Shown: positions 1,801-34,400 of the stretch, in pieces | Layout of the letters: the number at the start of each line of letters is the position of its first letter | How positions within the stretch are numbered: position 1 is the first letter of the stretch | NCBI RefSeq assembly: GCF_021028975.2 | Contig: NC_059426.1 | Location: 31,372,001 to 31,436,000 of the forward strand | Direction: 5' to 3' | DNA: 64,000 nt | Source of the DNA: Sphaerodactylus townsendi | Lineage: Eukaryota | Program-made: the position numbers and the translations under genes | The notes under the pieces: generated by a model | Databases searched by the model: none | Told to the model about the DNA's origin: nothing | What the model saw: the letters and a program-made list of their open reading frames with translations, nothing else

Positions 1801-2811
1801 ATTTTTTGCACAGTTCATTTCTCCAAAGACTGGCCGTGAGTATATTTGATTAACTGCTACTGTGGCTGGTATAAAGACCAGGAGAATCATTGCTCTCCGA
1901 ATAACTCATTAGTGAGTCACATTTTTATTTGAAATCAGAAAGTGCCTCTTTTACTGAGCTCATCACGTAGCATAGCCTACGCCTTTACATTATGATCAGA
2001 TACTGGGAAAATACCTACAGCAACAAGATCCCTTTAAGTAGTCTTCCCAAAGAAGAGAGGGTTTGTGTGTGAGTGTTTGGGGGACCGGGGGGGGGGGGGT
2101 TGCTGTTAAATTTTGCACAAACCATTATGCTGGTCAAGAACATATCATGTACATTTAACAGAAGGCTACTATTAACAGTTCATGTTGAATTCTTCCCCAT
2201 AATCATATCATATCATAATGTAACCATGTAAATATTTTGAGTCTGGTTGGCAGGCAATGTGGAATTGGCATGGGTGAACACACAACTGATTGCATCAACA
2301 TTTTCCATCTTCTGGGCAGTCTCCTTTGTGTATTCCCTCGTCCAAGAAGGGATAGTGGCCTTGGGTCCAGAAGATCTCCTGGACTTACAACTTCTCTCCA
2401 AAGAGATCAGTTCACCTGGGGTAAATATCAGCTTTGGAGGGGGGACTTTGTGGTGTTATACCCTGCTGAGGTCCAGCCACCAAATCTCTGGGAATTTCCC
2501 ATCCTGAAGCTGTCGACCCTATCACAAACACTCTGGGTGGTGGTACCATCTCACGGCAAGCTTTAGGAAGCAGATATAAAACAGTTCTGTTTGAGAGGGT
2601 ATTTGCCAAAGCCCCTTTGAGGCTAACATAGTTATTCTGGTTGATGTTAGGGCTGTAATGCTATTGTTTTGGCTTTGTCTTTGCAGTGTACTTACTTTTG
2701 ATAAAAGTCGAGGTAGGCCATTTGGATCCCTCTTTGACAGGAGAAAGGCGTATTGAAAATATTTGAATGAATAAAATCACAAAACAGGGTAAATTATTTT
2801 ACACATTATGT

Positions 2812-3120
2812 AGAAGAAGAAGAGTGTGATTTATATCCCCCCTCTCTCTTCTGTAAGGAGACTCAAAGGGGCTCCTTTCCCTTACCACCTCCTTTCCCTT
2901 ACCACCTCACAATAAACACCCTGTGAGGTAGGTGGGGCTGAGAGAGCTCAGGAGAACTGTGACTAGCTCAAGGTCACCCAGCTGGCATGTGTTGGAGTGC
3001 ACAAACTAGTCTGAATTCCCCAGATAAGCCTCCACAGCTCAAGCGGCAGAGCGGGGAATCAAACACGGTTCCTCCAGATTAGAGTACACCTGCTCCTAAC
3101 CGCTACGCCACTGCTGCTCC
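2812..3120 (-). mobile_element. Squam3-like tRNA/CORE-derived SINE
   Basis: About 300 bp, tRNA-like head (GGAGCAGCAGTGGCGTAG), GGGTGACCTTG core, (CTT)n tail; near-identical copies elsewhere in the window. Confidence 0.85.
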
Positions 3121-4738
3121 ATATGTAGGAGAAAATAAGCCCAGAAGCCGTAGTGCTGAAGATACCATAGTGGTGGAAGAAATAAGTCAATGTTGGAATG
3201 CCTTTTGAGGTAGCAACCTCATGTTGAAATAACATGAAGTTTTACTGTAAAACATAGAGCTGGGGTCCCCAACATGGTGCTCCTTGGTTTGTGCCCACTG
3301 ACACCTTTTCTGGTACCTACCAGGGGTTTTTATGAAGTGGTAGCTGCTAGGTAGGGCTTTTGTCCAGAAAAGCTTCTGACTGATTATTGAAGCTTTGATT
3401 GGTTACACAGACCTTTTAAAATATTGCTTTGGCGGCAGTTGTTACCACAGCACAAGGATCGGCAGTGTATTGCTGAAGTTACATTGTGGCAATCAATTCC
3501 AAACATGTCCACAGGCTCAAACATGTCAGGGACCCCTTGTTCAAGAAGCTGTAGCGACTTCCAGTTGGATCCGGAAGATCCCAGTTGGAATTTGACAGCA
3601 AGGACCTAGAACTCCAAGGTCTTAGACCATACTTCTTCCGCTGATACCCATTGCTTTTGCTGTGACACAGTAAGTTTTGTCAGTTTCACTTGGGTGAAAT
3701 GATGATTGAGCTCTGTGTGGTTGTAGCTAGTAGCTATGGAGAGGGACAGCCCTGCTAATTCTCAGGCTCTTCATTGGTCCTAAGTACCTGCTTTTACCAC
3801 ATGGGGATGTATTCAGACAGAATATTCAGAAATGAAAATGAACATGATAAAATGACTGCATGGCAGCCTTGTCATAACAAAAATGAATGGGGAAACTGGT
3901 TTTAACTTGGTTGCTTTGTGAGCATTCAGGGTAGGAAAGAAAAGGAAGAACAAGTCTTATCAGCTGAATTCAAGAAATAGCAAAAAACACAGAATGTACT
4001 ATGAAGTCAATGCAGATACAAAGTGAACAGCCCAACTGTAACCCCTTAATTTTCAGGAGCACTCACTGTCCCAACTGGATGATCAGAACTGCGACTAATA
4101 ACAAAAACTAAAAGCCAATAATAGTGGTCTAGAATTGTTTCTTCATTAAAATATGAAGCCCACACCTTTTGAAAAGCTATACCATTTACAAGTTGTGTTT
4201 AATGGAAGAGTAAAAAACTACTGTGCATTTCAACATAATGTAAGACAGCACCTGATGAACTTAAAGGACCTCATCTACAGATAGCTAGTTGACATTTACT
4301 CGAGCCTCGATAAATGTGTTTGCAGAAGCCTTTTAGCAGATTCAGTCTAGGTTTGATGAAAAGTACAACAATGAGGATTTGAACCATTAATGCTCTGTTT
4401 CTGAGAGGTGTTTGTAATGACTCAGCTACTTGTTCTATCTCCTCCCGCCTACTATTTGTTAGGTCTTGATCCTTGAGTCAATAAGCAGTCTCTGGATTGT
4501 TGATCAGTACTGTTTGTTGGAAAGGTAAGGAAGCACCTGGCTTTTGCCCCCTTTCTTTATTCAGAAACAATCCTACCTCCCATTTTCCCAAAGAATGTAT
4601 GAAAGACTTATCGGTATTTGGCCTCGCAGTGCCCCAGGGCTGCCCCAGGGCAGGCAGGGCATGGCATAGTAGCAGAAAACCTGCTGCATGAAGAAGGCCC
4701 AAGGTTTAATTCCCAGCATCACCATGTAAAACCATATA

Positions 4739-31271: not shown

Positions 31272-31426
31272 TTAATAAGCTGTTCCACCATCTGCAGTAG
31301 TAAGGTTCTGGTCAGGACTGGGAGAGATCTCTTCTACATATGTCGCTGGAAAAACACCACTTTTCCCATTCAGAGATCCATGCCACCATCCATCGTCTTC
31401 CTTTTGATGAATTACAATCACATCAC
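31272..31426 (-). CDS. NOSTRIN: NOSTRIN last coding exon (SH3 C-terminal half, stop)
   Basis: cttttag| GDVIVIHQKEDDGWWHGSLNGKSGVFPATYVEEISPSPDQNLTTADGGTAY*. Confidence 0.95.
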
Positions 31427-34400
31427 CTAAAAGAAAGAAAGACACGCACTGGATTTACTTTATCGGTCACATGTTATGCATCTGTGCCTAATCACAGAAT
31501 TGGAAGAGACCCCAAGGGCCATCAAGTTCCAGTCCCCTGCAATGTAGGAACATACAATCAAAGCACTCCAGACAGACAACCATCCAGCCTCTCTTTAAAA
31601 ACCTCCAAAGAAGGAGCCTCCACCACACTCCAAGGTAGTGCATTCCACTGTCAATCAGCCCTTACTGCCAAGAAGTTGGACTCTTTTCCTTCACCTTGAA
31701 CCCATTAATTACTCCTGGTCCTAGTCTCTGGAGCAGCAGGAAACAAGCTTGCTCCCTCACCAACCTGACATCCCTTCAAATAGCTAAACATGGCTATCAT
31801 GTCACCTCTTAACCTTCTCTTCAAACTAAATATATCCAGCTCCCTAAGTCTCTCCTCATAGGGCATGGATTCCAGGTCTTTCACACTTTGGCTGCCCTCC
31901 CCCATGGGGTTGGAGCCATTTGAAATTTCTGCTGGGGGGTGATTTTTGCTGATTTTTTACCCATGGCAGACCTAATCACCACCGCCACCACCATTCCAAA
32001 TCATTTCAGAGGTCATTTTGTGTTGGAGGGGGAGGCAAAGTCATATTCTGCTAGAAATCTCTCTCTTGTACTCTTTTAGTATTTGGGTATCTTGCTACCG
32101 GTCCTGCTTTGGCAGGAGAGAGCAAGGTATTAAATAAACGAACAACTTTCTGGCAGAAGACTTGTGGGATCATGTCTGGCAGTTGGTTACTAACCCAACA
32201 AATGGAAGGAGCTATGCTAGGATGAGAAGACTTAAACCAAAAGTTGCTACTAGTGACCAGATCCCTGATTTTACAATTCTTGAATTTTTCCTTTAAAAAA
32301 ATCTGTGGGATCATTTTTTGCTTTAGCTTTTAGGTTGTGTTAGGGTTTTTGGGATGAGGTTTTATTTTGATGTTACCATTGTGATGAGATTTTGCGTGGT
32401 TTTTATTGTAACCTGCCCTGAAACCATGGTAAAGGGTTGAGAATAAATGCAAATAAATAAAACGTCAGTATTGACTGAACTATCCACAGTGATCGAGCTC
32501 AAGTGCTTGTGCCAGAAGCTTTCTCCTTTCCATTCATCAAGACCCAGTAAGTTCTGTGCCGATGAATTGCCCGAGCTCTGCCTGTGTGGTCCTTGGAATT
32601 ATCTTTTTTCTGATTGTGCTTCACCAGCACTGAGGTACAGAAGTTGAATTTAGCTGTTTCTATAGGTTGGAAGCTACTTCTGTATACTGTTGGAAGGTAT
32701 ACTCCTCCTCTGAGAATGCATTTATTTATACTTTTATTTATATCCCACCCTTCCCAACCGGACTCAGAGTGGTATTAAAAATGAATTTACGCACACACAA
32801 GAAGCTATTGTGTCATATGTTCTTGGACTAAGATCTGGCAGCAAAAGCAACTTTTAGCCCAAATTGCAGCAAAACCTGTCTGAAATTGAAAGAGACAAGC
32901 ATGGAGAATTTATCTGCTCAACTGGGCTGGTGCCTTGTCCATTTTTATCCAGGGAGCCTTGCATTATCCGAGCAAAAAGTATAAATCTACACGGTGCTTC
33001 CCCCTTTCCCATTTCATTCTGAAATATCTGGAGGGTGACATGCAGAAAACAGGTTTTTGAGACAGGTCCATGATACACATTTGACATTGGCTATCAGGAA
33101 CATTATCTGATTCTTATTAGACTTCCTTCCTGCCCCTTTCCTCCGTGTATTTTTAGCTTGCAAATTGAGGAGAAAGAGTCTGTTCAGGGGTATGGGTTCA
33201 AGATGAAATTGCCAGAGATGTGGTGTGGTCCTCAGAATATTTACTCAAAAACATATATTGCTTTTCAGTCAGCGCACTGTTTCCTCTAGCACGGCTGTTC
33301 TCAACCTGTGGGTCGCGGCCGCTTTGGGGGTCAAATGACCCTTTCACAGGGGTCGCCTAAGACTCTCTGCATCAGTGTTCTCCATCTGTAAAATGGATAA
33401 ATGTTAGGGTTGGGGGTCACCACAACACGAGGAACTGAATTAAAGGGTCGCGGCATTAGGAAGGTTGAGAACCGCTGCTCTAGCAATTGGTTGGTTTTCA
33501 GCCTTAATGAAATTGACCATAGTTTGAGATTGCAGTGATGGTATAAATCGAGGGCTGCTGACTCCAGTCTGGGAAATGCCTAGAGACTGGACTTGAGGGT
33601 GCCTGGGTCACACGGAGTTTGGGGAAGGGAGGGGTTCAGCCGGAACGTGAGGCCATAAAATCCACTCACAGAAACTTCAGTTGTGTAGTTCAAAGATCAG
33701 TTGTAATTCCAGGAGAGTTCCAGACCCCACACTATGGCTCCTTCCGCACATGCAGAACAATGCACTTTCAAACTGCTTTCAGTGCTCTTGGAAGCTGTGC
33801 GGAATAGCAAAATCCACTTGCAATTAGTTGTGAAAGTGGTTTGAAAACGCATTATTCTGCGTGTGCGAAAGGGGCCTATGTAAATCCTAACTGTGGCCTG
33901 ACATTTTATTGCCATCTAAATATTTGTGTGTTTTTTTAAACCCAATGAATACTTCCATTTGGATGAGAGAAAAAGTTACCTTCTTTCAAACAAAGTTCAT
34001 CTTCCCTTTCCGTCTGGTAATCGTATAAAGCTGTACACATGGTGCTTGCTGAATCACCATTCACCGGATGTGAACAGGGTGTTGGATTTGAATTGCAAAC
34101 AATCGCTGGAAAGCAGAAGGGGAAAAAAATGGCGAGGTTTGCAGGGGGAAGTTAAAACTGGGTCTGACCCTCTTCAGCAATTCCTCTCCCTTTAGCAGCC
34201 TCCCATTTCAGCTCTTGAATTTTTAAGAGGGGTTGAACATTGATAAGACAGATTGAACATTGGAGCTGTAGGACTAAAAGCGTTTTGTTCCATTTTGGGC
34301 ATGCAAATTCCACTCACATAAATAATTTAAGTTGGTGGATGTTTCAGTTTTGATCACGCAAGCAGCTGCCCCTCCCGTCCACCCTGAAGGCGGGCACCCT

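What the first reader, a model, noticed from the sequence alone, without database searches (positions are those of the whole stretch)
33292..33477. SPIN MITE carrying a captured MIR/CORE-SINE-like filler, a possible tag for the donor of a horizontal transfer
Seen: a 186-bp element with a perfect 8-bp TSD (ctctagca) in the last NOSTRIN intron. Between the SPIN left and right arms lies about 43 bp (33364-33406, tctctgcatcagtgttctccatctgtaaaatggataaatg) resembling the MIR/Ther1 CORE (ctctctgagcctcagtttcctcatctgtaaaatgggg). Known: SPIN hATs spread by repeated horizontal transfer among mammals, squamates, a frog and a triatomine bug. Inference: the filler was captured by gap repair in whichever genome formed this MITE. 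If the same breakpoint and filler occur in a mammal or insect, the non-autonomous element itself crossed species.
Basis: partly seen in the sequence, partly recalled or inferred. Interest (0 to 1): 0.7.

Follow-up and report, generated by a model that had tools for sequence, protein, structure and literature searches.

The report
Gecko jumping element carrying SINE fragment
This is one of thousands of copies of a small jumping DNA element in a gecko genome, whose middle is a scrap resembling an ancient retroposon that was likely picked up in the gecko lineage itself, so it is probably not a tag of a donor species.

Summary
The 186-bp element and its perfect 8-bp target duplication are real and lie in the last NOSTRIN intron. 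It is one copy of this gecko genome's main SPIN-type hAT MITE (5,902 exact junction matches). The 44-bp middle is absent from the long parent elements. It matches the MIR/Ther1 CORE at 29-30 of 34 positions, in the segment that Squam3 has lost.

The donor-tag idea is not supported. The parent element and several sister MITEs with other middles lie in the same genome, and old native CORE remnants exist there. The four organisms whose runs hold the filler also share a neighbouring repeat with this genome. In four other SPIN carriers the arms run into other sequence.

Import is not excluded (about 12%): native CORE remnants are rare, no donor locus was found, and the organisms are coded.

Side result: this subfamily, unlike its sisters, forms 122-bp tandem arrays (416 junctions). 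They lie near chromosome ends, often within one target duplication, and likely spread by local recombination.

The parts
33284..33291 (+). Left copy of the 8-bp target site duplication
   Evidence: Identical to 33478-33485; fits the family consensus nTCTAGAn from 75 perfect duplications
33292..33363 (+). SPIN left arm (element nt 1-72) with the 16-bp terminal inverted repeat at 33292-33307
   Evidence: Shared with long elements L151 and L153 and with sister MITEs
33356..33363 (+). Internal 8-mer CCTAAGAC (nt 65-72): the filler starts right after it, array units start at it, and two nested insertions used it
   Evidence: L057 duplicates it around another hAT-like element; L313 holds an inverted copy inserted at it; 416 end-to-8-mer junctions
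33364..33407 (+). 44-bp filler; 33363-33396 is MIR/Ther1 CORE-like; the last 7-8 bases are ambiguous with the SPIN arm
   Evidence: 30/34 to MIR1_AMi, 29/34 to Ther1 (by eye); best local score 21 or less against six long or partial parent loci
33408..33477 (+). SPIN right arm (nt 117-186) with the terminal inverted repeat at 33462-33477
   Evidence: 88-96% identical (element nt 109-186, reference copy L002) to the right ends of five long copies
33478..33485 (+). Right copy of the target site duplication
31437..33979 (-). Host: last intron of NOSTRIN
   Evidence: Last exon 31311-31436 best matches Nostrin SH3, E 4e-14; the preceding exon ends near 33980

Best explanation
This is a passive 186-bp copy of the gecko genome's main SPIN-type hAT MITE, whose middle likely came from an old MIR/Ther1 remnant of the gecko lineage's own genome, likely copied in during repair of a cut SPIN element. 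Shown: structure, copy number, a parent element in the same genome, filler foreign to the parent, CORE-like match. Inferred: after SPIN entered this lineage, gap repair of one element left the template after nt 72, copied about 35 bases of a CORE remnant and rejoined the right arm, helped by short matches at both ends (one base left, about four right). The product was then amplified in trans by SPIN transposase to roughly 10,000 copies. Later, also inferred, one or a few insertions into the internal 8-mer joined a right end to nt 65, and that junction spread between nearby copies by recombination, giving 122-bp arrays.
For: Near-full-length parents with 618- and 636-residue open frames lie in the same genome. 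The 600-aa transposase has 85-91% identical relatives in snakes, a loris, a toad, a bat, a gerbil and an anole. The genome made its own sister MITEs: of 70 loci examined, 27 had another 44-bp middle (B), 20 a 56-bp middle (C), 17 other forms and 6 were this family. Right-arm non-CpG divergence is similar: 44/1425 here, 37/1736 in B, 29/1300 in C. This family and B share two left-arm variants that are absent from 20 of 20 C copies. Native CORE remnants exist: 11 of 11 hits are free of SPIN arms, and several continue as MIR. All 4 of 4 laid runs that hold the filler (organisms A, B, C, F; 3 studies; one may be this species) also cover the unrelated repeat at about 33730-33877; A also holds sister B's middle (loose ends). 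In the other 4 laid runs (D, E, G, H; 4 studies) contigs leave the left arm at 33357-33363 into other letters (17-66 contigs per listed loose end).
Against: No donor locus was found: all 44, 68 and 30 (of 31) hits of three filler patterns built to avoid the arms were MITE derivatives. Full-CORE remnants are rare here: 11 hits within two mismatches in 1.81 Gb, with a strand imbalance of 10 to 1 that suggests an incomplete search. Squam3, the abundant native SINE, lacks this segment. A MIR-rich genome would offer many more templates (own knowledge). The family is not younger than its sisters (3.1% against 2.1-2.2%; B and C were picked by a stricter pattern), so arrival together with the parent is not excluded. 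The last 11 filler bases also match the Ther1 tail exactly, better than the reptile tails (by eye). Organisms are coded, so their kinship is inferred from one shared repeat.
Confidence: 0.78

Rival explanations
1. The MITE formed in a MIR-rich genome (mammal, or a turtle- or crocodilian-like reptile) and crossed into geckos together with, or after, the autonomous SPIN.
For: Native templates are scarce (a rough binomial estimate gives 2,000-4,000 decayed remnants, about 1% of them as close to the consensus as the filler). Squam3 is excluded. No donor locus. The family is as old as its sisters or older. The last 11 bases match the Ther1 tail.
Against: The run search ranked arm-only holders (share 0.60) among its 20 rows, and all four organisms with higher shares cover another repeat of this window. 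A SPIN-arm variant in 3 of 64 non-family copies matches the filler's end at 7 of 8 bases, so the Ther1 tail is not needed. Passages in PMC3621081 and PMC3157835 describe such MITEs as likely deletion products of the longer elements of their family.
Confidence: 0.12
2. The filler is not SINE-derived: it is ordinary genomic or repair-synthesised DNA, or a heavily changed version of sister B's 44-bp middle, and the CORE match is chance.
For: The two middles have the same length and agree at 20 of 44 positions without gaps (p 0.012 by shuffling). The match to CORE is short and was found after the fact.
Against: Without the last 8 SPIN-like bases the agreement with B is 14 of 36 (p 0.11). No intermediate form was seen among 70 loci. 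30 of 34 identity to a published consensus is about 41 bits by a hand estimate with recalled BLAST constants.
Confidence: 0.08
3. The filler is an internal piece of the autonomous SPIN.
For: Sister B's middle does contain a piece that also occurs inside the long element (14-15 bases), so such origins occur.
Against: Best local score 16-21 on both strands of six long or partial parent loci, equal to background (95th percentile 21).
Confidence: 0.02

Closest known systems
SPIN non-autonomous elements (hAT, Charlie group), e.g. SPIN_NA11_AC (273 bp) and SPIN_NA1_AC (745 bp) of Anolis; copperhead SPIN MITEs
   Same: Same 16-bp terminal repeat and NYYTARRN-type 8-bp duplication (table passage, PMC3014272); high copy number; low divergence as in copperhead (about 6%, PMC3157835 passages)
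   Different: 186 bp with a 44-bp foreign middle instead of a plain internal deletion; forms 122-bp arrays. I could not see the SPIN_NA consensus set of Pace 2008 or Gilbert 2010/2012, so this family may already be listed there.
Filler-carrying hAT elements, e.g. hobo_AC of Anolis
   Same: hAT elements that took up pieces of other repeats, SINEs included, from the host genome and amplified them (PMC3014272 passages)
   Different: Here the cargo is one 35-44 bp scrap of a very old, rare SINE, not kilobases of common repeats
MIR/Ther1 CORE SINEs (Ther1, MIRb, MIRc, MIR1_AMi, MIR_Testu, tuaMIRa) and Squam3
   Same: 29-30 of 34 bases match the 3' part of CORE (28 for MIRb) (by eye)
   Different: No tRNA head and no LINE-derived body; moves as DNA cargo. 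Squam3 lacks the segment altogether.
Transposon-derived tandem repeats: SINE-derived satellites of squamates (PMC10702118), MITE-derived Xstir and miDNA4 of Xenopus (review PMC9659126)
   Same: Short arrays made from part of a mobile element, near chromosome ends in squamates
   Different: The unit runs from an internal target-like 8-mer to the exact right end of a hAT MITE, in one register at many loci, with one left arm and often one shared target duplication

Membership tests
SPIN (hAT, Charlie group) | 16-bp terminal inverted repeat of the published SPIN type | tested here: met
   Window copy 14/16 and 16/16; family majority 16/16
SPIN (hAT, Charlie group) | 8-bp target duplication with central TA | tested here: met
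   75 perfect duplications of 164 distinct full-length copies; T and A at 95% in positions 4-5
SPIN (hAT, Charlie group) | Ends shared with an element coding a roughly 600-aa transposase that is near-identical across distant tetrapods | tested here: met
   Pfam hAT dimerisation domain only weak, E 7e-4, below cut-off
SPIN (hAT, Charlie group) | Direct identity to the Repbase/Dfam SPIN consensus | not testable with these tools
   No such library; primary papers not held
MITE | Short, non-coding, uniform length, high copy number | tested here: met
   186 bp in 30 of 30 top hits; 5,902 junction matches
MIR/Ther1 CORE SINE | CORE domain sequence | tested here: met
   29-30 of 34 bases, read by eye from supplement 2 of PMC7983390; a fragment only
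MIR/Ther1 CORE SINE | tRNA-derived head and L2-derived 3' region | tested here: not met
   The filler is bounded by SPIN arms; only an 11-base match to the Ther1 tail, which has another explanation
Squam3 SINE | CORE with the 32-nt deletion | tested here: not met
   The filler matches the part that Squam3 lacks
Horizontally transferred non-autonomous element | Same breakpoints and filler in distantly related hosts | tested here: inconclusive
   Seen in 4 of 8 laid runs, all 4 sharing another repeat with this window; names coded, one search of 20 rows

The most novel reading that the evidence does not exclude
The MITE was built in a MIR-rich genome such as a mammal's, and the non-autonomous element itself crossed into geckos, so its filler records the kind of donor and the direction of a SPIN transfer.
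Probability: 0.12. Interest if true: 0.62.

Novelty: new member of a known kind. Interest (0 to 1): 0.3.

Why it matters
As it stands it is one more lineage-restricted SPIN MITE, useful as a marker family for gecko phylogeny and as a clean example of filler capture by a hAT element. If the filler were foreign, it would give what SPIN studies mostly lack (own knowledge): a direction of transfer and a donor type. The arrays matter in a smaller way: they show a tandem repeat arising from a MITE at one precise junction and apparently spreading between neighbouring copies, which can be tested in other gecko assemblies.

Tried and rejected
Donor search: three filler patterns built to avoid the arms gave 44, 68 and 31 hits; 44, 68 and 30 were read and all were MITE derivatives. 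An ungapped scan of 492 kb of masked loci gave nothing above the reversed control.

Lack of cover, which does not prove absence: runs of organisms D, E, G and H show next to no cover over the filler and none over the repeat at 33730-33877. No run covered the unique flanks, so the empty site could not be checked. Summed depths were not read as copy numbers.

Filler against native CORE remnants scored 30-41 against a 99th background percentile of 24. Those remnants were picked by a filler-like motif, so this is circular and was not counted; the background maximum of 80 is probably an unmasked MITE copy.

Two-part capture (CORE plus Ther1 tail): possible but not needed.

Arrays by slippage on the target duplication: rejected; duplications at arrays are no more like the internal 8-mer than those at single copies (2.8 against 3.2 of 8, 19 against 139 loci, p 0.96). 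Arrays by plain nested insertion: rejected as the general cause, 416 right junctions against 1 left junction. Repeated fresh attack on a preferred target: weak; the 8-mer scores in the lowest 7% of real target sites, the better site one base left gives 0 junctions, and sisters B and C give 0.

Earlier findings: two look-ups, nothing. Primary SPIN papers were not held. One search was a script error, rerun.

Full report
Observation. The element lies at 33292-33477 with a perfect 8-bp duplication and terminal inverted repeats. It has no second copy in the window. It sits in the last intron (31437-33979) of a minus-strand gene: the last exon matches Nostrin SH3 best and the exon before it ends near 33980. 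The foreign middle is 44 bp (33364-33407).

The family. The 19-mer across the left junction occurs 5,902 times in G000, with 0 for the control. About 10,000 copies follow if 3% decay is allowed (estimate); both numbers include array units. The 30 best hits are all 186 bp and differ from their majority by 2.7% on average, a best-hit sample. The first 30 junction hits on contig 1 differ from a near-majority copy by 4.9%. Target duplications are perfect in 75 of 164 distinct full-length copies, consensus nTCTAGAn.

The parent. Long elements with the same ends lie in this genome: L151 and L153 carry both ends with internal gaps; L356 and L357 carry open frames of 618 and 636 residues and the right end. 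The 600-aa protein has relatives at 85-91% identity in pit vipers, corn snake, slow loris, toad, Myotis, gerbil and anole. That patchy spread fits SPIN as described in the passages I saw, and the terminal repeat equals the published one. The filler is in none of six long or partial parent loci on either strand: scores 16-21, background 95th percentile 21.

Sister MITEs. A pattern for the left arm followed by anything but the filler gave 443 hits; 70 were read (the first 30, plus 40 chosen for the SPIN-type continuation). They hold 27 of subfamily B (also a 44-bp middle), 20 of C (56 bp), 17 other forms and 6 mutated members of this family. So SPIN made several MITEs in this lineage. Non-CpG divergence on the right arm is 3.1% here (44/1425, 22 copies), 2.1% in B and 2.2% in C; B and C were picked by a stricter pattern, so I read these as about the same age. 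This family and B share two left-arm variants that C lacks.

What the filler is. Read by eye against supplement 2 of PMC7983390, window 33363-33396 matches MIR1_AMi at 30 of 34, Ther1, MIR_Testu and tuaMIRa at 29, MIRb at 28. One base cannot tell reptile from mammal type. A hand estimate with recalled BLAST constants gives about 41 bits, so the likeness is unlikely to be chance. Squam3, abundant in geckos, lacks exactly this segment. Full-CORE remnants do exist in G000 but are rare: 11 hits within two mismatches, none with SPIN arms, several continuing as MIR. The paper reports from one to about 500 tuaMIRa-like copies per squamate genome. No donor locus was found. The last 11 filler bases equal the Ther1 tail, but a SPIN-arm variant in 3 of 64 non-family copies explains 7 of the last 8 as well.

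Other organisms. One search of sequencing runs gave 20 rows, 8 coded organisms, 7 studies; I laid one run per organism. Organisms A, B, C and F (3 studies; one may be this species) hold the filler. By the tool's 31-letter rule the left junction is bridged in A and F and the right one in A, B and F; in C a 61-letter contig matches the filler with no difference and 8-9 arm letters on each side. All four also cover an unrelated repeat of this window at about 33730-33877, and A holds B's middle. In D, E, G and H (4 studies) contigs leave the left arm into other letters.

Mechanism. Most likely (0.78) the filler was copied from a native CORE remnant during gap repair of a cut SPIN element and the product was amplified in trans; these steps are inferred from established hAT biology. 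Import from a MIR-rich genome keeps about 0.12. My rough reasoning: templates may be some 30 times denser in such a genome (own knowledge), but import of a ready-made MITE is uncommon, and no holder outside the apparent lineage turned up. A chance likeness has 0.08 and a SPIN-internal origin 0.02.

Arrays. Many loci hold one whole copy followed by repeats of nt 65-186 (122 bp), up to 23 units in the stretches read. The junction from the right end to the internal 8-mer occurs 416 times; the reciprocal left junction once, the register one base left 0 times, and the same junction in B and C 0 times. Of 30 arrays with both ends read, 19 have one shared target duplication, and their heads show about the same mix of variants as single copies. 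All 33 array loci on contigs 1-4 lie within 35 Mb of an end; on contigs 1-2 that is 18 of 18 against 55 of 96 control loci (p 2e-4; loci are clustered, so not independent). Among the 30 of 44 arrays with a recurrent non-CpG variant, pairs within 5 Mb share one in 20 of 71 cases, distant pairs in 27 of 364 (permutation p 0.001). This fits one or a few founding junctions spread by local recombination. Hopping of whole arrays is the rival, and assembly errors in short A-runs could inflate the sharing. One contig of organism B shows the same junction, with 30 letters on the short side.

Literature seen. PMC7983390: first quarter of the text, passages, supplement 2 whole, search hits in supplements 1 and 3. 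PMC3014272, PMC3157835, PMC3621081, PMC10702118, PMC11614815, PMC9659126: passages only. Pace 2008, Gilbert 2009, 2010 and 2012 were not held; what I say of them is recalled or second-hand, and their supplements may already list this family. Eight paper searches showed, in the titles and abstract starts listed, nothing on this MITE or its arrays; PMC10702118 has no occurrence of SPIN or MITE.

Verdict. A real, ordinary member of a known kind with an unusual but explicable filler. The donor-tag reading is not supported and not excluded. Interest 0.3, part of it for the arrays.

Noticed in passing
G000, e.g. L009, L270, L340, L343, L347, L349 (C1:6-18 Mb and 179-187 Mb, C3:145-168 Mb, C5:3-19 Mb): Tandem arrays of a 122-bp unit (element nt 65-186) behind one whole MITE, often inside a single target duplication; 416 exact junctions, near chromosome ends, not found in subfamilies B and C; neighbouring arrays share variants.
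   Followed up: yes
L057 (C1:138.10 Mb) and L313 (C4:23.80 Mb): The internal 8-mer was used as an insertion site twice: by another hAT-like element of about 640 bp, which duplicated it, and by an inverted, truncated copy of the MITE itself, although it is a weak match to the target consensus.
   Followed up: partly
L031-L060, L360-L399: Independent SPIN deletion forms converge on a 44-45 bp middle and 186-187 bp total (this family, B, L036, L391), with C at 198 bp; this may reflect a preferred end-to-end distance for the transposase.
   Followed up: no
L356:1752-3554 (C1:19.886 Mb) and L357 (C3:11.72 Mb): Two SPIN-type transposase copies keep long open frames (600 aa from the first Met in L356) and are annotated as ZBED8-like genes, despite about 10% decay.
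   Followed up: partly
window 33736-33877: A second, roughly palindromic repeat of about 140 bp, abundant in runs of organisms A, B, C and F; not classified.
   Followed up: no
L161, L163, L164, L167: Old native MIR/Ther1 remnants with the full CORE; L161 keeps recognisable body and tail.
   Followed up: partly
L315-L318 (C1:186.85-186.91 Mb); L324 and L335: Array loci that share target duplications and private variants, so they probably lie in segmental duplications or inside a larger repeat.
   Followed up: no
L171, L176, L177, L181, L187-L189, L197: Some copies and long arrays carry many small indels, which looks like unpolished long-read error rather than decay.
   Followed up: no
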